Shown piece after piece: positions 2,850 to 18,027 of a stretch of DNA of 64,000 nucleotides. The notes beneath the pieces are model-generated. The model was not told the origin of the DNA and did not search any database. It worked only from the letters and a program-made list of their open reading frames with translations. The position numbers and the translations under genes are program-made. Every line of letters begins with the position of its first letter. Within the stretch, counting starts at the first letter, position 1. Origin of the DNA: a virus. Location of the stretch: IMG/VR virus record IMGVR_UViG_3300027869_000006, positions 45,769 through 109,768 of that record, one strand, 5' to 3'.

Positions 2850-5357
2850 ATGTCGTATACACTCTTACCAGGGCAGTCATTCTTGCCATCGGGCATTTCC
2901 AACTATGCGTTAGGCATGGTCACCACCGGCCCCTATCTCTCGCCGAACTTCCTGGACTCAAGCGCGATCCAAAGCCTGGTCAAGGCGGCAGGCACGACCG
3001 TGGTGCGTGTCTTCACCGATGACCTGGGCACAGACTCGGATGCGACACTCGACACCTACTACACCGCCATCACTAACGCGGGATGTGTGATGCTCGTGAA
3101 CCTGCAACATCCGTGGGATGACGCCCGCTGCCAGCATATCGTCACCCACTACGGGTCGCGCTGCTTGTTGTATGAATTTGGCAATGAACCAAGTCTCTAC
3201 ACGTCCCCAACGGTCTCAACCACGCAGTATAACTCGTACTGGACTACCACCATCCCGCATTTACGTTCGATTAACGCGGCGGCAGCGTACATGGGTCCGG
3301 CCATCATCGTGGGGGACCCTGGTGGCTACCTGTCCAGTTGGCTGACTGCCGTCGTTTCTTCGGGTATCCTCCCTGATGCCGTCAGCTTCCATATGTACTG
3401 CTCAGATACCTCGGAAACAAAGGAGATGGCACTTGCCGCCTATTACTATGTCTATACCGAGGATATCCGGCAGCAGGTGACGACGGCACTTGGACACGAG
3501 GTAGCGATCTGCCTGACGGAATGGAACTTCGATAGCGGGTTTCCCCCTGGCGCATGGGGGACTGATCCCACGTTCATGATCCCTTTCACAACGAACGCCT
3601 GGGGGGCTATCACAGCGGCAGGCCCGGCCCTTGCCTGCATCTTCAATATCTGTAGCGGCGCGGGTGGAGGTGGTGGCCTGCTTGACCTGATTGACTCGGT
3701 GACCCAGGCCCCACGTCCCAATGGGCAATACAGCACGCTTGCTAGCCTGTTTGCCGCTGCCCAGCATGCGCCGGTGACGCCACCGCCCGTGCCGATCAGC
3801 GCCTACGCTTCCGTCATCCAGGCTGATACGCCGCTCTGGTACGGACGCGGGGATAGCCGTGATGTGAGCGGGAACGCGCATAACGGCACGATGGTCGGGT
3901 ATGTCGAACTGGGGCAAGCCGGACTCCTGCCCTACGATCCGATGACGAGTATGAACTTCGGGGGCAGTGGCTATATCAGCGTGCCCACAGCTACCCTGCC
4001 AACGGGGGCGCATGCCTGGTCAATGGAATGCTGGTTCTTGTGGCCAACACTCGAGCTCACCAACTACGATGGCTTGATGGACATGGGAACACGCGTTTCT
4101 ACAGAAGAGGTCTCCTTCTATTACGACCAGGTGAGCGGCAAGCTCTCCAATGGGACATTTGGGGACGTGGACGTAGAAGCAACGCCAGCAGTCGTCGCGA
4201 ACCAGGTCTACTACGGGGTCATTACCTACGATGGAACGACGAGCACGATTGATCTGTACAGTTCGCTCGGGCGTGTGAGCACATCTGCTGCACGCACCAT
4301 CAACCTGGTCCAGACCCATGCAGGCATCGGGGGGACGGCGAATGTGGCCGTGCCGTTTACCGGGCGCGGGCAGGAGTTCGCCTTCTATGGCTACGCGCTT
4401 TCGGGAACGCAGAAAGCGGCCCACTACGCGGCAGGCACGACACCGCCGCCGCCATCCTTTGGGTATGCGAACTACAAAAACATCATTGAACCCAACCTGG
4501 TGGCGGCACTTGCCGCGAAGAATCTCTTGAACGTGGTTTCCCTCATCGGGCCGGAAACGACGATGCAAAATGATGCCTGGCTCAGCAGTGCCGCCGCCGA
4601 TCTCTCCGGCACGCTGGAAGGCTACATCCGGCATGCTTTCCCGACGGGTGCCACCGATATCAGCAGTGGGGGCATTGAGGTGGCAATGGATACTCTGGTT
4701 CCGACCATCTTAGCGCATGACCCAACAGGCATCGTCCTGCAGGGTGAGATGGGGTCGGGCTACTACGGGCCTGGGCCGCAAGTCGCGGGCTATCAGTACG
4801 GCGTCGAAATGACCGATTTCGCGGTGCAGTTGGCACGTGCGAAGATGAGTGCCTTCATCGCCTACCTCCTCGACGATGACATGACGGGCACCATGTGGGG
4901 CATGTGGAAGCTCACCGATCCACTGGGCGGCGCTCCACTGCGTCCCTGGTTCTTCCCATGGTCGCTCTTGTGCAAGAGCATTGCCGAGGGAAGCACGCTC
5001 TACGCGCCAGCACAGCCCTCGACCAATGATCTGCGGGTGCTGGCGGCAGAGAGCCCACAAGGGGCCTGGACGTTTGTGCTCGTCAATCGTGCTGGTGGCG
5101 CCCGTACTCTCCGGCTGTCCGTTCCATTCGCGCCACCAGCCACTCAGACCTTGCAGCAGTACATCTATGCAGAGGCCGTGCCACGCGTAGTGGATGGCAA
5201 TGGCTTCCCGCTACCGGCAGGGACGATCACCGCGAACCTGGCGCGTGGGTTCAGCGTACCGATGGCGGGCAATTCCGTGCTCATTTTGACGCAGCAGACG
5301 GCGACGCAAACCACGATCTATAACGTGAAGCGTCCACCCCTTCAGAAACGGAGATAG
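2850..5357 (+). CDS. Multi-domain clan GH-A glycoside hydrolase plus LamG-like domain (tail/receptor-binding protein)
   Basis: YEFGNEP, VSFHMY and CLTEWN motifs; LamG-like WSMECW...YYGVITYDG; C-terminal half of a second GH barrel; AGGAGG RBS. Confidence 0.7.
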   Translation: MSYTLLPGQSFLPSGISNYALGMVTTGPYLSPNFLDSSAIQSLVKAAGTTVVRVFTDDLGTDSDATLDTYYTAITNAGCVMLVNLQHPWDDARCQHIVTHYGSRCLLYEFGNEPSLYTSPTVSTTQYNSYWTTTIPHLRSINAAAAYMGPAIIVGDPGGYLSSWLTAVVSSGILPDAVSFHMYCSDTSETKEMALAAYYYVYTEDIRQQVTTALGHEVAICLTEWNFDSGFPPGAWGTDPTFMIPFTTNAWGAITAAGPALACIFNICSGAGGGGGLLDLIDSVTQAPRPNGQYSTLASLFAAAQHAPVTPPPVPISAYASVIQADTPLWYGRGDSRDVSGNAHNGTMVGYVELGQAGLLPYDPMTSMNFGGSGYISVPTATLPTGAHAWSMECWFLWPTLELTNYDGLMDMGTRVSTEEVSFYYDQVSGKLSNGTFGDVDVEATPAVVANQVYYGVITYDGTTSTIDLYSSLGRVSTSAARTINLVQTHAGIGGTANVAVPFTGRGQEFAFYGYALSGTQKAAHYAAGTTPPPPSFGYANYKNIIEPNLVAALAAKNLLNVVSLIGPETTMQNDAWLSSAAADLSGTLEGYIRHAFPTGATDISSGGIEVAMDTLVPTILAHDPTGIVLQGEMGSGYYGPGPQVAGYQYGVEMTDFAVQLARAKMSAFIAYLLDDDMTGTMWGMWKLTDPLGGAPLRPWFFPWSLLCKSIAEGSTLYAPAQPSTNDLRVLAAESPQGAWTFVLVNRAGGARTLRLSVPFAPPATQTLQQYIYAEAVPRVVDGNGFPLPAGTITANLARGFSVPMAGNSVLILTQQTATQTTIYNVKRPPLQKRR

Positions 5358-12658: not shown

Positions 12659-12792
12659 AGTGGTTTTTCAGATGGGTCCATCAAGTGATGTCTTTGTTAC
12701 ACAAGAGGCGCAGCTATAGCGAAACGATCCTGGCTGAGAAGCCGATCCGTTACTATCGACTCGATGGAAGTGACACAACACGTGAGCAATGA
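12655..12792 (+). CDS. 45-aa ORF carrying only the N-terminal motif of the LamG modules
   Basis: ATGA overlap with endolysin stop; YSETILAEKPIRYYRLD resembles YRTTILADNPLYYNRAG and YASVIQADTPLWYGRGD in the tail genes. Confidence 0.45.
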   Translation: MKWFFRWVHQVMSLLHKRRSYSETILAEKPIRYYRLDGSDTTREQ

Positions 12793-13507
12793 AGAGTGCA
12801 AACTGATTGCATACCAACTCTATGATGGTGATCTCCCCATGCAAATCGTTCCGGCACCGCGCAAACGGCAGTGGATGGATCAGACGCCACAGAGTTTTGC
12901 GAACCGTTGCCTCCCGCTCTTACTGGGAAATGCGAGCGGCTGGTGGCTCTTGAACACGCACGAGATACAGGTGACCTGGAACGGCGGCACTGATCTCTCC
13001 GCGCTCACCATCGCGGGTCGGGGTAGTTCGGAGACCGGCTATGCACTGAGCCATTTTGGTAACGGTCTCTTAACTTGGAATATTCCCCTGCTCTTTTCCA
13101 CGCCCCCTGGATATAATTTGCTGGTACGTGGCCCTGCAAACTGGCCCAAAGACGGGGCATACGCACTGGACGGGCTTGTGGAGACAGATCACGCTGTGGC
13201 GACATGGACCATGAACTGGAAGATGACGCGGCCTGGCCTGACCGTCACCTTTGCCAAGGGCGAACCGATAGCACAAATCGTGCCACAGAAGCGTGGAGAA
13301 CTAGAGACATTCACCCCGCAAGTACGGAACATCAGAGAGGCACCAGAGTTACAAGCTGCATACAATGCGTGGGCATCTAGTCGCTCAACATTCAATATGG
13401 AACTGAAGAGACCAGGGTCAGAGGCAGTGAAGCGGCAATGGCAAAAGGATTACTTCCAAGCATCCCATCAAACAAAGGTCGCATTGAAGGAGTTCACAAC
13501 TCCATGA
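12764..13507 (+). CDS. DUF6065-family protein
   Basis: RQWMDQT..FANRCLPL..GN..GW, SHFGNG, GPANWPKDG, GLVETD, TMNWKMTRPG. Confidence 0.75.
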   Translation: MEVTQHVSNEECKLIAYQLYDGDLPMQIVPAPRKRQWMDQTPQSFANRCLPLLLGNASGWWLLNTHEIQVTWNGGTDLSALTIAGRGSSETGYALSHFGNGLLTWNIPLLFSTPPGYNLLVRGPANWPKDGAYALDGLVETDHAVATWTMNWKMTRPGLTVTFAKGEPIAQIVPQKRGELETFTPQVRNIREAPELQAAYNAWASSRSTFNMELKRPGSEAVKRQWQKDYFQASHQTKVALKEFTTP

Positions 13508-13543: not shown

Positions 13544-14128
13544 ATGGCAACGACACCGACAAAAACCCCGAAGCAGCAAGCCTCACTCGCAGGCGTCTGG
13601 CAGGGCATTGAGGCACCAATCATCGGTATCCTCCTCTCCCTTGCCGTAGCTATTCAGCAGTATTTTAGTACCCATAGTGCCCCAAATTGGGGAGAACTGG
13701 GAATGATCCTGTTCCCGACCGTCATTGTTGGTATTGTGCAAGCACTCAAGCAGTTCAATGCAACACTCGGGCAGGCATCAGTTCCCATCGTCACCGTCCC
13801 GCCGCCCGCACCGGTTGTCTCACCATCCGACATTGCGGCAGCGATACGACAGCAGGTACCAGGACTGGTCATACAACAGCCACCGGCACCACCGTCGTTC
13901 ATTGCGCCGTCAGTGCCACCAGGAGGATACGATACGACGCTGGTCCAACCCCTCTCATTCGCCCCTCTGACCACGCCTGCCCAGCCACAACAACCGTACA
14001 CGTGGTCACAGCCAGAACCATCCCCGACACTCACGACACCTGCGCCAGTAATTACGCCGGTATTGTCACTGCCAAGTACGTTTCCGCAAACACTCGATTT
14101 ACCAATCGTACGACCACAAATTGAGTAA
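13544..14128 (+). CDS. Holin-like membrane protein (2 TM) with Pro/Thr-rich tail
   Basis: Two TM segments, GGAGG RBS, located in the lysis region. Confidence 0.6.
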   Translation: MATTPTKTPKQQASLAGVWQGIEAPIIGILLSLAVAIQQYFSTHSAPNWGELGMILFPTVIVGIVQALKQFNATLGQASVPIVTVPPPAPVVSPSDIAAAIRQQVPGLVIQQPPAPPSFIAPSVPPGGYDTTLVQPLSFAPLTTPAQPQQPYTWSQPEPSPTLTTPAPVITPVLSLPSTFPQTLDLPIVRPQIE

Positions 14129-14129
14129 T

Positions 14130-14167
14130 AATAAAGGGTACTACATCTGCATGTAGTACCCTTTATT
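14130..14167. terminator. Bidirectional intrinsic terminator
   Basis: Perfect 17-bp stem AATAAAGGGTACTACAT-CTGC-ATGTAGTACCCTTTATT between convergent transcription units. Confidence 0.85.
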
Positions 14168-14170
14168 CAT

Positions 14171-14363
14171 CCCATACCATACCGCATCCCGCCGGACTGC
14201 ACCCCACCCAGCCTTGCCAGACATTACCCCGCATCGCCACGCCTTACCCCACCGAACTACACCTTACCAACCAGACCATGCCGAACCCGACCGGACCACG
14301 CTATACCGTACCTTACCTTACTGAACCCAGCCAAGCCGGACCTCACCATACCTACCGTGCCAT
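14171..14363 (-). ncRNA. Pentamer array A (NN-GGY units; putative gapped-code guide RNAs)
   Basis: Plus strand parses as RCC-NN: 19 units (14171-14265), 4-nt break, 16 units (14270-14349), 4-nt break, 2 units. Confidence 0.75.
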
Positions 14364-14581
14364 TAAGCGTATCGTGTTTGGTCTGTCTCCCAGTTCACTA
14401 AACGTACAGGTGTCACATCTAAGTCTGTGATAGGAATGCCATACTTTTCTTCAGCTAAACTCAGTCCTTCCTGAGCATCACTAGCGGTTATCTCACCCAC
14501 TATAGGCACCTGCTGCTTTCTTAGCTTGGCATGCACGGTAGTGTCATGTCCCTTATACCAAACATCGAACCTATGCAACAT
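14363..14581 (-). CDS. 72-aa accessory protein translationally coupled to the RAMP gene
   Basis: TAATG stop/start overlap at 14583-14579; stop abuts array A. Confidence 0.65.
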   Translation of the reverse strand: MLHRFDVWYKGHDTTVHAKLRKQQVPIVGEITASDAQEGLSLAEEKYGIPITDLDVTPVRLVNWETDQTRYA

Positions 14582-15129
14582 TACTTCACCTTTTCCCATG
14601 ACACAAGAGCAAATCTCCCATACGGCCCTTTCTTTGCAGGACGGAAGTCACCAATGCCAACAAGTCGCCCTGCATCGGTGAGTATGTCACGGATAAGACG
14701 TTCACCAACTAGATCGGTATCAATCTGAACATCAAACTCCATATTCCACTCATCGAACATTGGCCTGTGGCGTAGAATACGCCCCCCAGTCGCTTTAATG
14801 ACAACAGCCCGTGAGTCCACATGCCATTCCCCTACCAGAGGAATTTCAAATGGGCTAACATAGACCCCTGCCGCTACATCAGTTGTCGCAGCCCTCCGTC
14901 CAATTTTGTGTCGTGATGCTGCTGCAATCATTGACTGCCGAATATTCTCAGCCGGATAGAATGGGCTATGTTCATTGGTATACAGGCGACTTGCCGCATC
15001 TTCATGAGGAGCCGGATATTCTTTCCGACCATGTGTTCCTGAAGTTGCTTCCTCTGCCGCTGCCTCATGAAAACGATTCACGATGAGCGGCGTCAAACTC
15101 GTAATGTTGACCTTGTACGTTACAATCAT
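14581..15129 (-). CDS. Stand-alone Cas7/RAMP-like RNA-binding protein (Vipr-like), 182 aa
   Basis: N-terminal strand YKVNITSLTPLIV, PAENIRQSM helix, thumb-like DSRAVVIKATGGRILRHRPMF, C-terminal Gly-rich loop AGRLVGIGDFRPAKKGPYGRF; GAAAGGA RBS before ATG 15129; flanked by pentamer arrays. Confidence 0.75.
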   Translation of the reverse strand: MIVTYKVNITSLTPLIVNRFHEAAAEEATSGTHGRKEYPAPHEDAASRLYTNEHSPFYPAENIRQSMIAAASRHKIGRRAATTDVAAGVYVSPFEIPLVGEWHVDSRAVVIKATGGRILRHRPMFDEWNMEFDVQIDTDLVGERLIRDILTDAGRLVGIGDFRPAKKGPYGRFALVSWEKVK

Positions 15130-15160: not shown

Positions 15161-15192
15161 GTGGTGCCCTGCCCCAGTGGTAGGGCTACCAC
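15161..15192 (-). promoter_or_regulatory. GC-rich hairpin between array B and the RAMP gene (RNA 3' end, processing or attenuation element)
   Basis: GTGGT-GCCCTGCC-CCAGT-GGTAGGGC-TACCAC. Confidence 0.5.
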
Positions 15193-15211
15193 GCGAAACA
15201 AAATGAACAAA

Positions 15212-15604
15212 ACCATACCAGACCGGACCTCGCCAAACCCGGCCTTGCCAGACCGGGCCTTGCCAGACCGGGCCAAACCCGACTACACTAGACCTCATCA
15301 TGCCACACCTCCCATACCATACCCATCCTTACCGAACTGCGCCAGACCGCAACGTACCAGACCGCGGCAAGCCGGGCCGGACCCAACCTAACCTATTCCT
15401 CAGCAAACCATGCTATACCCCACCTGACCGTAGCACTCCTTCCAAACCGCACCATACCCAACCAAGCAGGACCCCGCGTCACCGCACCTGATCGGGCCAT
15501 ACCCCACCTGACCAAGCCGTGCCTACCTTGCCGCACCAAACCTCACCTCACTCAGTCTTGCCTCGCTGGACCTAGTCGCACCGAACCTGACCTTGCCGTG
15601 CCAT
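15212..15604 (-). ncRNA. Pentamer array B (NN-GGY units; putative gapped-code guide RNAs)
   Basis: Segments of 19 (15212-15306), 16 (15311-15390), 8 (15397-15436), 16 (15441-15520) and 16 (15525-15604) RCC-NN units, separated by 4-nt (one 6-nt) phase breaks. Confidence 0.75.
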
Positions 15605-16237
15605 AATCCTGCTATAGGCCAATTTCACGCAGAACTCAACGTCATTCCATACCTGGGAGCCAGTGAAGCGAAGAACGTACCAGCCTTGATCTTCAATCGT
15701 ATGCTGTCGCATATAGTCTCTATTTCGGTCTCTCTTGTGACTATGGAACGCTTGCCCATCAAGTTCGATTACTATCTTTGCTTCAACATGGGCAAAGTCT
15801 ACACGATACTTACTAATCCGATGCTGTCGCTCAAGAGGGATATCTGGATACAGCAGGCACCATGCTTCATAAAAGGCTTCCTCGATGGGACTTCCATTCT
15901 TGACGGATTGCTGAATTTCCCGTAAACGATTACGAGCCTCATTAAGTGCAGCCTCACGTTGTTGATTAGCAAGTCGCAAGGCTTCTACTCGCTCTGCTTC
16001 TAGTGCTTGACGACGTTCTAGGGCCTGCTCTCGCTTCTCCCGAATGGTTGCTACTTCAATCTCTCTCTGGACAGATTGCTGATGCTCATTCGCACGACGC
16101 TTCAACTCCCTAGCTTCCTGAATCATACTAGCTTTCTCTGCCGCAAGTTGACGTTGTATGGCAAGTTCATGCTCTCTGTCAGCTTGAAGTTTTCGTTGTT
16201 GTTCTTGATAGTCGTTGAATGCTTGCCAGTCCATCAT
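15572..16237 (-). CDS. DUF559/Vsr-like PD-(D/E)XK endonuclease with long N-terminal coiled coil
   Basis: SPIEEAFY, ERQHRISKYRVDF, IVIELDG..FH, RDYMRQ..IEDQGWYVLRFTGSQV; the last codons overlap array B. Confidence 0.85.
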   Translation of the reverse strand: MMDWQAFNDYQEQQRKLQADREHELAIQRQLAAEKASMIQEARELKRRANEHQQSVQREIEVATIREKREQALERRQALEAERVEALRLANQQREAALNEARNRLREIQQSVKNGSPIEEAFYEAWCLLYPDIPLERQHRISKYRVDFAHVEAKIVIELDGQAFHSHKRDRNRDYMRQHTIEDQGWYVLRFTGSQVWNDVEFCVKLAYSRIMARQGQVRCD

Positions 16238-16239
16238 GC

Positions 16240-16413
16240 TTATTGTTCTCGTTTTGTAGGCTTTTGCTGTTTCTGTTGTACTCGTTCTAATTCTTGGTTC
16301 GCTAAACGGTCAAGAAGACTCACGATACTCTCCCCTGTGATGGCATGAAGCATACGCAAGGTGGTAAGTGTCCTTGTCCAGATGCGAGTTGTTTTGTAGT
16401 CATCGGTAGCCAT
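16240..16413 (-). CDS. 57-aa ribbon-helix-helix-like regulator (not in the ORF track)
   Basis: MATDDYKTTRIWTRTLTTLRMLHAITGESIVSLLDRLANQELERVQQKQQKPTKREQ; strand-helix-helix pattern; leaderless start 6 nt after the -10 box. Confidence 0.6.
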   Translation of the reverse strand: MATDDYKTTRIWTRTLTTLRMLHAITGESIVSLLDRLANQELERVQQKQQKPTKREQ

Positions 16414-16419
16414 GAAGTT

Positions 16420-16448
16420 ATTTTACTACAAACAAGTGTTCTTGTCAA
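16420..16448 (-). promoter_or_regulatory. Sigma70-type promoter of the RAMP/array operon
   Basis: TTGACA-17 nt-TAAAAT on the minus strand. Confidence 0.8.
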
Positions 16449-17720: not shown

Positions 17721-18027
17721 AGCCGAGGTTCCCATCCATTACATACATGCCCAGCATCGCCTCGTCTTCACAAGGGTGCTGGGCATGGTTATGTTGGTGC
17801 CGGTGGCAGGAAATGAGCCTGCGCCTCCGGGTTTGTAGCCCGGCGCTCTCTGAGCTTCACCGGCATAGGCTCTCCTCACCCCAGGTACAGGTAGAGGAAC
17901 GCGAGCACCGTGCGGAAGACGCCCCGCACAAACTCAGTAGGGATGCTATGCGGCCAGACGAGATACAGCAGAGTGAGAAGGATCAAGGTGATCCAGTACC
18001 AATAACGACGCAAAACTCCACGCATGG

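What the first reader, a model, noticed from the sequence alone, without database searches (positions are those of the whole stretch)
15212..15604. Array grammar: 84-nt units (16 pentamers plus a 4-nt break), 19-unit terminal segments, conserved leader and tail
Seen: phase breaks at 14266/14350 and at 15307/15391/15437/15521 define four segments of exactly 16 pentamers. The 3'-most segment of each array has 19, and one segment has only 8. Both arrays start (minus strand) with ATGGCACGGYA, and two segments end GGTATGGTATGGG. Segment 15212-15306 contains an exact 15-nt tandem duplication (GCCTTGCCAGACCGG twice). Inference: about seven individual guides whose boundaries are set by the register shift, with a fixed filament length; slippage may diversify the guides.
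Basis: partly seen in the sequence, partly recalled or inferred. Interest (0 to 1): 0.78.

Follow-up and report, generated by a model that had tools for sequence, protein, structure and literature searches.

The report
Phage VIPR staggered guide-RNA arrays
The five-base repeats are the guide-RNA arrays of a phage VIPR system, a CRISPR-related DNA-binding system first described in 2026; the one-base register slips do mark guide boundaries, but guide length is not fixed, so this is a clean new example of a known kind.

Summary
Two minus-strand arrays of GGY-NN pentamers (15604-15210 and 14363-14172) flank a 182-aa gene. Their period-5 signal is about 50 times the window median and occurs nowhere else in the window.

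The gene is a Vipr protein (profile match to the solved SUSP1 Vipr, E 7e-17; Cas7-like fold). The locus is therefore a VIPR system (bioRxiv 10.64898/2026.04.26.720920), and the layout matches the "staggered vrRNA array" of that preprint's Fig. S18.

The breaks are 4-nt units that shift the register by one base.
- In eight related loci, 50 of 54 breaks are of this kind, with consensus GGYAW-GGWW|G.
- Sequence identity between two sister loci starts and stops at or just before the breaks.
- This supports "about seven guides bounded by register shifts".

The fixed 84-nt length is not supported. Across relatives, segments run 44-129 nt (mean 83, sd 20). 84 nt is only the most common value (8 of 44).

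The 19-unit terminal rule is not conserved, and the "leader" is a boundary mark placed at the array start. In-register tandem duplications recur in relatives, which fits slippage.

No targets and no RNA data were found.

This scan has already noted staggered VIPR arrays in at least 13 other genomes.

The parts
16420..16448 (-). Promoter-like site, TTGACA-17-TAAAAT, upstream of the operon
   Evidence: 11 of 12 consensus matches. This is a consensus match only; function was not shown.
16240..16413 (-). 57-aa ORF, first gene of the putative operon, function unknown
   Evidence: no significant family match. No relatives in the fetched loci.
15572..16237 (-). 221-aa protein with an N-terminal coiled-coil-like region and a C-terminal DUF559 / Vsr-like nuclease domain. 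It is the candidate accessory (vap) gene. Its last ~11 codons run into array B.
   Evidence: Pfam DUF559 E 1.3e-15 and REase_MTES_1575 E 3.9e-12. Homologues sit directly upstream of the vipr-proximal array in L028, L029, L108, L110 and L111, at 42-48% identity.
15524..15604 (-). Array B, guide B1: AT, then 15 GGYNN units starting with GGCAC, then the 4-nt unit GGTA
15440..15523 (-). Array B, guide B2: 16 units plus the 4-nt unit GGAA (84 nt)
15394..15439 (-). Array B, short segment B3: 8 units plus the 6-nt unit GGAATA (46 nt). Units 3-5 are identical to units 3-5 of B2, so it may be a truncated paralogue of B2.
   Evidence: Repeat family D1 has copies 84 nt apart.
15310..15393 (-). Array B, guide B4: 16 units ending GGTAT GGTAT, plus the 4-nt unit GGGA (84 nt)
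15210..15309 (-). Array B, guide B5: 20 units, holding the 15-nt (3-unit) tandem duplication at 15242-15271. Its last units, GGTCT GGTAT GG, resemble the 11-nt closing piece GGTCA GGTAT G of relatives.
15177..15192 (-). Small hairpin GTGGTAG-CC-CTACCAC between array B and the vipr ribosome-binding site
   Evidence: Read directly from the sequence. L110 and L111 carry a different hairpin at the same place.
14581..15129 (-). vipr, 182 aa: a minimal RAMP / Cas7-like protein expected to polymerise on the guide RNA
   Evidence: PDB 36pp_D 'SUSP1 Vipr protein' E 6.6e-8 with the single sequence and 7.4e-17 with a profile. phrog_4652 E 7e-17. AlphaFold2 pLDDT 87.8. Top fold matches are Csm3 / type VII Cas7, E 1e-7. 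R122, D161 and R163 are invariant and F162 nearly so; they align to SUSP1 R138, D177, R179 and W178.
14363..14599 (-). 78-aa ORF between vipr and array A. It is lineage-specific, or not a real gene.
   Evidence: No family match. No homologue in any fetched locus. In relatives the downstream array starts within about 10 nt of the vipr stop.
14353..14363 (-). Array A opening mark: AT GGCAC GGTA, a 9-nt piece that ends in a 4-nt break
   Evidence: The same opening is seen in L111 (GGCAC GGTA), L029, L110 and L108.
14269..14352 (-). Array A, guide A1: 16 units plus the 4-nt unit GGTT (84 nt)
14172..14268 (-). Array A, guide A2: 19 units plus GG, ending GGTAT GGTAT GG
14133..14164 (.). Perfect 14-bp hairpin with a 4-nt loop. 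It looks like a terminator closing the operon on the minus strand and also the converging + strand gene 13544-14128.
   Evidence: Read directly from the sequence. L110 and L111 have hairpins at the same place with changes on both arms.

Best explanation
This is a VIPR (Viral Interference Programmable Repeat) locus in a soil phage of about 110 kb.

Gene order. One minus-strand operon runs: promoter-like site, 57-aa ORF, DUF559-type nuclease gene, guide array B, vipr, 78-aa ORF, guide array A, terminator hairpin.

Mechanism, inferred from the published SUSP1 system.
- The arrays are transcribed.
- One Vipr protomer binds each GGY-NN unit and hides the GGY.
- The NN pairs are left exposed to pair with double-stranded DNA, reading two bases and skipping one.

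Array type. The arrays are of the 'staggered' kind, with no tail, ribozyme or repeat handle between guides. Each guide instead ends in a semi-conserved 9-nt mark, GGYAW-GGWW. Its last unit is one base short, so the next guide starts one base out of register.

How the break works (my inference). The 4-nt unit breaks the 5-nt spacing that protomer-protomer contacts need. Its third base is a purine in 17 of 50 cases, and the published Y pocket excludes purines. The filament would therefore stop there and a new one would start on the next GG, with host RNases trimming the junction. By this reading the window encodes seven guides of 8 to 20 units.

Guide length. Length is not set by a ruler. It varies between relatives in whole units, apparently through in-register duplications and deletions. 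The four 84-nt segments here sit at the modal length of the clade.

What is shown: the anatomy, the protein homology and fold, the conserved break grammar, and the cassette-like evolution of segments. What is inferred: transcription, processing at the breaks, DNA targeting, and any role of the nuclease.
For: Protein:
- Sequence and profile matches to the solved SUSP1 Vipr.
- Confident model with a Cas7 / Csm3-like fold.
- The published GGY-contacting residues have invariant or near-invariant counterparts: R122, D161, F162, R163.

RNA:
- 113 units in the window, 86 of them GGY. The period-5 signal is found only here.
- In 107 related loci, 176 arrays lie on the vipr strand and 9 on the other.

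Boundaries:
- In 8 loci of the clade, breaks are 4 nt 50 times, 6 nt 3 times and 9 nt once. Random indels would give +1 and -1 about equally.
- At all 50 four-nt breaks the short unit starts GG and the next base is G. The two bases before the break are A/T in 46 and 48 of 50.
- The last full unit has exact GG in 48 of 50 cases against 552 of 711 for inner units (Fisher p 0.001). Its NN is A-biased (chi-square p 2e-4).
- 42 of 44 segments are 4 mod 5 in length, with a coefficient of variation of 0.24. Random placement would give about 1.
- L110 and L111 are identical in the flanks and in one whole guide each. Identity starts exactly at GGCACGGTA| upstream and at GGCAAGGTA| downstream. The other guides share only the GG scaffold.

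Published description: staggered arrays whose vrRNAs overlap by 1 nt. One protomer per repeat and the two-read, one-skip code.

Setting: the record is a virus record.
Against: - No RNA data exist for this phage, so transcription and RNA ends are untested. The preprint states that staggered arrays were not among the architectures confirmed by small-RNA sequencing.
- No target was found for any guide in the phage's own genome, in 113 fetched loci, or in IMG/VR for three guide cores.
- Counterparts of SUSP1 H17 and K33 could not be aligned.
- One break in the window is +1 (GGAATA), and segment B3 is only 8 units. Neither fits the rule cleanly.
- Array B opens without a break after GGCAC.
Confidence: 0.9

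Rival explanations
1. A molecular ruler sets a fixed guide length of 16 pentamers plus a 4-nt break (84 nt). The other lengths are terminal or defective guides.
For: - Four of seven segments in the window are 84 nt.
- L111 has three 84-nt segments.
- 84 nt is the mode in the clade, at 8 of 44.
- Given the frequency outside the window (5 of 39), three or more of five internal segments at 84 nt has a binomial probability of about 0.02 (my calculation).
Against: - Segments in the same clade run 44-129 nt with every step of 5 nt represented: 59, 69, 79, 84, 89, 94, 99, 104, 109, 114.
- Sister loci differ by whole-unit indels inside an otherwise identical guide.
- Other staggered clades have 39-64-nt segments.
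- Published vrRNAs have 9-16 repeats.
Confidence: 0.05
2. The breaks are neutral indels in a long, decaying repeat tract. Each array is one guide, or has no function, and the breaks carry no boundary role.
For: - Some units are degenerate: 24 of 113 lack GG.
- One break is +1 and one segment is short.
- No targets were found.
Against: - There is a strong bias to -1: 50 of 54 breaks.
- The break sequence is conserved, and GG conservation is highest at the breaks.
- Spacing is regular, with a coefficient of variation of 0.24.
- Identity blocks between L110 and L111 end at the breaks.
Confidence: 0.03
3. The breaks separate filaments but not RNAs. The array stays as one long transcript carrying several Vipr filaments in a row, each reading its own target, with no cleavage at the junctions.
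For: - No ribozyme, hairpin or known processing element lies at the junctions.
- No Cas6-like gene is in the locus.
- Staggered arrays have not been confirmed by small-RNA sequencing.
Against: - The preprint's Fig. S18 legend speaks of 'individual processed vrRNAs' whose ends coincide.
- In SUSP1 the arrays do give separate RNAs of about 100 nt.
- A naked junction between filaments would be open to host RNases (inference).
Confidence: 0.15

Closest known systems
VIPR systems with 'staggered' vrRNA arrays (bioRxiv 10.64898/2026.04.26.720920, Results and Fig. S18 legend)
   Same: - A small RAMP-like Vipr gene flanked on its own strand by GGY-NN pentamer arrays.
- Guides abut without tails.
- Neighbouring guides are offset by one base (a '1-nt overlap').
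- The system is phage-encoded.
   Different: - The type number (I-VII) could not be assigned, because the figures and data tables are not held.
- Guides here reach 19-20 units, and 25 in a relative, against the 9-16 repeats quoted in the preprint.
- The locus carries a conserved DUF559-type nuclease gene, although the preprint says predicted nucleases occur only in the defence-island types III and V.
Type II VIPR of Escherichia phage SUSP1 (structures: bioRxiv 10.64898/2026.04.26.720927; PDB 36pp)
   Same: - Homologous Vipr protein with conserved thumb arginine and G-loop D-aromatic-R.
- One array upstream and one downstream of vipr.
- The same GGY/NN scaffold.
   Different: - Each SUSP1 vrRNA ends in an invariant tail of about 40 nt with a pseudoknot. 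Here there is no tail, only a 9-nt mark and a register shift.
- The SUSP1 accessory gene vap1 is a predicted DNA-binding protein, not a nuclease.
- Only residues 40-177 of the profile align to SUSP1 Vipr; the single-sequence match covers residues 110-174.
Class 1 CRISPR-Cas backbone (Cas7 / Csm3 filaments on crRNA)
   Same: - RRM-core RAMP fold. The top structural matches are Csm3 and type VII Cas7.
- Protomers polymerise along a guide RNA, with a thumb that disrupts pairing periodically.
   Different: - The period is 5 nt with only 2 pairing bases, not 6 nt with 5.
- There is no repeat-spacer array, no Cas6 or Cas5 handle recognition, and no adaptation genes.
- The guide scaffold is interleaved with the specificity letters.

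Membership tests
VIPR system | The Vipr protein is a minimal RAMP (RRM core, G-loop, thumb) homologous to characterised Vipr | tested here: met
   PDB 36pp_D SUSP1 Vipr, E 6.6e-8 and profile E 7.4e-17 over profile positions 40-177. AlphaFold2 pLDDT 87.8. Foldseek top hits Csm3 / Cas7, E 1e-7, probability 1.00.
VIPR system | Conserved residues that hold the GGY motif (SUSP1 R138, D177, W178, R179; also H17 and K33) | tested here: inconclusive
   R122, D161 and R163 are invariant and F162 nearly invariant in 35 homologues. They align to R138, D177, R179 and W178. The N-terminal region holding H17 and K33 did not align.
VIPR system | Tandem YNNGG / GGYNN repeats with constant GGY and hypervariable NN, next to vipr on the same strand | tested here: met
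   113 units, 86 GGY. The period-5 signal is unique to the two arrays. Both arrays lie on the vipr strand. In relatives, 176 arrays are on the vipr strand and 9 on the other.
VIPR system | Arrays are expressed as small RNAs that co-purify with Vipr | not testable with these tools
   Only one DNA run holds the stretch and no RNA holder is listed.
VIPR system | Guides match natural DNA targets under the two-read, one-skip rule | tested here: inconclusive
   No match above shuffled-guide controls in the phage's own 109.8-kb record or in 113 loci totalling 0.8 Mb. No exact 10-unit core match in IMG/VR for B2, B4 or A1.
VIPR system | A conserved accessory (vap) gene in the locus | tested here: met
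   The DUF559 nuclease gene is conserved directly upstream of the vipr-proximal array in 5 close relatives. Whether it equals one of the published vap1-6 could not be checked.
Staggered vrRNA array (Fig. S18) | Guides abut without a tail, ribozyme or repeat handle | tested here: met
   Continuous pentamers across the junctions. No Rfam family in the arrays.
Staggered vrRNA array (Fig. S18) | Successive guides are offset by a 1-nt overlap (a -1 register shift) | tested here: met
   Five of six breaks in the window are 4-nt units followed by G. In the clade, 50 of 54 are.
Staggered vrRNA array (Fig. S18) | Processed RNA ends coincide with the register shifts | not testable with these tools
   No RNA data. 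The preprint itself did not confirm this architecture by small-RNA sequencing.
   Segments run 44-129 nt, mean 82.6, sd 19.8, n=44. 84 nt accounts for 8 of 44.

The most novel reading that the evidence does not exclude
In this clade the one-base-short unit (GGWW|G) would be a self-sufficient 'comma'. It would partition a single transcript into separate Vipr filaments and guides without any tail, ribozyme or dedicated endonuclease. The conserved, co-transcribed DUF559 nuclease would make this phage-borne VIPR cut its targets rather than only silence them. The first VIPR preprint assigns target cutting only to host defence-island types.
Probability: 0.3. Interest if true: 0.5.

Novelty: new member of a known kind. 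Interest (0 to 1): 0.27.

Why it matters
The system itself is no longer news. VIPR was described in three 2026 preprints, and this scan has met staggered arrays in at least 13 other genomes.

This locus and its relatives add detail to an architecture the preprint shows only in a supplementary figure and did not confirm by RNA sequencing.
- The guide boundary is a conserved 9-nt mark ending in a 4-nt unit.
- Guides evolve as cassettes delimited by that mark.
- Guide length drifts in whole units through in-register duplication and deletion, so it is not fixed.
- Arrays open, and in some relatives close, with the same mark.

The locus also shows a phage-encoded VIPR clade with a conserved nuclease partner. 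If that nuclease acts with the guides, target destruction would not be limited to host-domesticated types.

Tried and rejected
Early ideas dropped:
- A TRAP-like attenuator, where a ring protein binds triplets spaced 5 nt apart. Dropped once the neighbouring gene proved to be a Vipr homologue.
- A coding reading. The arrays hold only short frames; ATGGCACGG... stops after 11 codons.
- A known RNA family. Rfam finds only a tRNA at 17798-17864.

Target searches under the two-read, one-skip rule:
- Own genome and 113 loci: nothing above shuffled-guide maxima.
- Three IMG/VR scans with 10-unit cores of B4, B2 and A1: zero hits.
- Cores of B1, B3, B5 and A2 were not scanned.
- The earlier notes that A1 and A2 mirror the flanking genes at the amino-acid level were not reproduced at the nucleotide level. 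A1's match at 16552-16503 scores 20 of 34 and is not above the null. I did not test the amino-acid claim.

RNA evidence: no RNA holder is listed. One soil-metagenome DNA run holds the stretch and may be its source.

About 90 close Vipr homologues could therefore not be placed on DNA, and the clade sample is 8 loci.

A pattern scan for the boundary mark in IMG/VR gave only 4 further loci, from other clades.

The VIPR type number could not be assigned, because the preprint's figures and data files are not held.

Full report
**What is there**

Read on the minus strand, window 15604-15210 and 14363-14172 are runs of five-base units with constant GGY and variable NN.
- Of 113 full units, 89 begin with GG and 86 are GGY.
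- A sliding Fourier measure of period 5 for CC on the + strand gives 1.7-3.1 inside the arrays against a window median of 0.04. Every value in the top 0.5% lies in these two tracts. The opposite strand shows nothing comparable.
- A phase-aware Viterbi parser finds exactly these two arrays in 64 kb, both on the minus strand.

The tract is real and far beyond chance.

The arrays are interrupted by short units:
- GGTA at 14356-14353
- GGTT at 14272-14269
- GGTA at 15527-15524
- GGAA at 15443-15440
- GGGA at 15313-15310
- one 6-nt unit, GGAATA, at 15399-15394

The spacings agree: 84 nt in array A, and 84, 46 and 84 nt in array B. A first segment of 79 nt from GGCAC becomes 84 nt if the preceding TATGG is counted.

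The 3'-most segments have 19 units plus GG, and 20 units. ATGGCACGGYA, GGTATGGTATGGG and the exact 2 x 15-nt duplication at 15242-15271 are all present.

**What it is**

Between the arrays, on the same strand, lies a 182-aa ORF (15129-14581).
- It has no Pfam, NCBIfam or PADLOC match. It belongs to phrog_4652.
- It matches the solved 'SUSP1 Vipr protein' (PDB 36pp_D) at E 6.6e-8. A profile of 35 homologues raises this to E 7.4e-17.
- An AlphaFold2 model is confident (pLDDT 87.8). Its best structural matches are the Cas7-family subunits Csm3 and type VII Cas7 (E about 1e-7, probability 1.00).
- The residues that hold the GGY motif in SUSP1 have invariant or near-invariant counterparts here. These are the thumb R138 and the G-loop D177, W178 and R179, matched by R122, D161, F162 and R163.

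The literature search led to three 2026 preprints on VIPR systems. They report the following:
- A Vipr protein polymerises on vrRNAs made of GGY/NN repeats, one protomer per repeat.
- The NN pairs read double-stranded DNA with one base skipped after each pair.
[quoted passage not shown] A 4-nt unit followed by G is exactly such a one-base overlap (GGTT|G read as GGTTG / GGTAA). The preprint adds that only the ribozyme and single-guide architectures were confirmed by small-RNA sequencing.

**Locus and setting**

The window is part of a 109,768-base IMG/VR virus record, estimated 85% complete, from soil. On the minus strand the order is:
- a promoter-like TTGACA-17-TAAAAT
- a 57-aa ORF
- a 221-aa protein with a DUF559 / Vsr-like nuclease domain (E 1.3e-15)
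- array B, then a small hairpin
- vipr
- a 78-aa ORF
- array A
- a perfect 14-bp hairpin

The nuclease gene is conserved in the same position in five of the close relatives. The 78-aa ORF is found in none.

**Do the breaks mean anything?**

I fetched 107 loci encoding relatives of the protein, five more from metagenomes, and parsed all of them. Arrays lie on the vipr strand 176 times and on the other strand 9 times.

The close clade comprises eight loci at 63-75% protein identity: the window, L028-L030 and L108-L111. It shows a clean grammar.
- Of 54 breaks, 50 are 4-nt units, three are 6 nt and one is 9 nt.
- At all 50 four-nt breaks the short unit starts GG and the next base is G.
- The two letters before the break are A or T in 46 and 48 of 50.
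- The last full unit has exact GG in 48 of 50 against 552 of 711 for inner units (Fisher p 0.001). Its 'variable' letters are A-biased (chi-square p 2e-4).
- Segment lengths are 4 mod 5 in 42 of 44 cases. Their coefficient of variation is 0.24, far from the value near 1 expected for randomly placed indels.

Two sister loci, L110 and L111, give the most direct evidence.
- Their flanks are identical.
- One upstream guide is identical from exactly GGCACGGTA| onward.
- Downstream, identity resumes at GGCAAGGTA| and runs through the whole last guide.
- The guides in between share only the GG scaffold.

Segments therefore behave as exchangeable cassettes bounded by the breaks.

**What is not supported**

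- Internal segments run from 44 to 129 nt (mean 82.6, sd 19.8, n=44), with nearly every 5-nt step represented.
- 84 nt is merely the mode, at 8 of 44 overall and 5 of 39 outside the window.
- Other staggered clades have 39-64-nt segments.
- Terminal segments in relatives are 68-92 nt, or an 11-nt closing piece, not 19 units.
- The 'leader' ATGGCACGGTA is the ordinary boundary mark placed at the array start. L111 opens with the same GGCAC GGTA|. L029, L110 and L108 open with GGCGA GGTA|, GGTAA GGTA| and GGCTA GGCA|.
- Array B of the window opens with GGCAC GGCAA and has no break there.

There may still be a mild preference for 15-16 units. Three or more of five internal segments at 84 nt has a probability of about 0.02 under the clade frequencies (my calculation).

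My reading of B5, as inference only: its first 17 units correspond to a normal 84-nt guide whose closing unit has regained a fifth base (GGTCC). It is followed by the conserved closing piece GGTCT GGTAT GG.

**Slippage**

The 15-nt duplication in B5 is three whole units. Relatives show the same thing:
- 15 nt in L029 and L108
- 10 nt in L028
- 35 nt (seven units) in L110 and L111

The longest segments are the ones that carry such duplications. L110 and L111 also differ by a four-unit indel inside an otherwise identical guide. In-register duplication and deletion is therefore a recurrent source of length change. Whether it creates useful new guides is unknown.

**Mechanism**

- Shown: the protein family and fold, the scaffold, the boundary grammar and the cassette behaviour.
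- Inferred from the SUSP1 work: transcription, one protomer per unit, and DNA reading by NN with one base skipped.
- My own inference: the 4-nt unit breaks the 5-nt spacing that neighbouring protomers need. It often offers a purine where the pyrimidine pocket excludes purines (17 of 50). The filament would then end there and a new one would begin, with the junction trimmed by host RNases.

**Limits**

- An unprocessed transcript carrying several filaments is not excluded.
- No target was found for any guide.
- No RNA run holds the stretch.

**Verdict**

This is a well-formed new member of a known kind. The boundary reading is supported by comparative evidence. The fixed-length and terminal-segment rules are rejected. 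This scan has already reported staggered VIPR arrays in at least 13 other genomes, and on this same genome in other notes.

Noticed in passing
window 15572-16237 (-); L029:2820-3461, L108:1074-1583, L110:1862-2449, L111:2007-2618, L028:3331-3672: A DUF559 / Vsr-like nuclease gene with a coiled-coil-like N-terminus is conserved directly upstream of the vipr-proximal array in this phage-borne clade. Its 3' end runs into the first units of the array. The first VIPR preprint says predicted nucleases occur only in the defence-island types III and V.
   Followed up: partly
L110:2478-2941 and 3542-3727 versus L111:2621-2941 and 3542-3707: Two sister loci have identical flanks and one identical guide in each array. 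All other guides are replaced, with only the GG scaffold shared. One shared guide differs by a four-unit in-register indel.
   Followed up: yes
L029:3705-3833, L108:1592-1690, L028:3749-3840, L110:2491-2599, L111:2753-2846; window 15242-15271: In-register tandem duplications of 2, 3 or 7 units (10, 15 or 35 nt) recur inside guides, and the longest guides are the ones that carry them. Under the two-read, one-skip code they would match 6-, 9- or 21-nt periodic targets, that is 2-, 3- or 7-residue protein repeats.
   Followed up: no
window 15439-15395 versus 15523-15480: The short 8-unit segment B3 shares units 3-5 (GGTCA GGTGG GGTAT) with B2, exactly 84 nt upstream. B3 may be a truncated duplicate of B2.
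   Followed up: partly
window 14363-14599 (-): A 78-aa ORF overlaps the vipr stop and separates vipr from array A. It has no family match and no counterpart in any related locus, where the downstream array follows vipr within about 10 nt.
   Followed up: partly
L030:4548-5737; L115:1211-1803 (-); L116:3328-3753 (-); L066:3143-3946; L117:7183-7580: Other Vipr clades use other 'commas'. Examples are GGAW|GCY (L030, 16 guides in 1.2 kb), GGCA|GG with 39-64-nt guides (L115, L116), a constant +2 / -3 shift with 62-87-nt guides (L066), and 7-8-nt GGATCNN units (L117).
   Followed up: partly
window 17798-17864 (-): A tRNA gene (Rfam RF00005, 60.5 bits) lies about 1.4 kb from the VIPR operon in this phage record.
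   Followed up: no
window 12764-13507 (+): A 247-aa protein gives a strong DUF6065 match (E 8e-84). It lies just upstream of the proline/threonine-rich 194-aa gene that converges on the VIPR terminator.
   Followed up: no
L110:3728-3770 versus L111:3708-3750: The terminator hairpins after the downstream arrays differ at several positions on both arms (G/T, C/T, G/A and C/A changes). This looks compensatory; the pairs were not counted formally.
   Followed up: no
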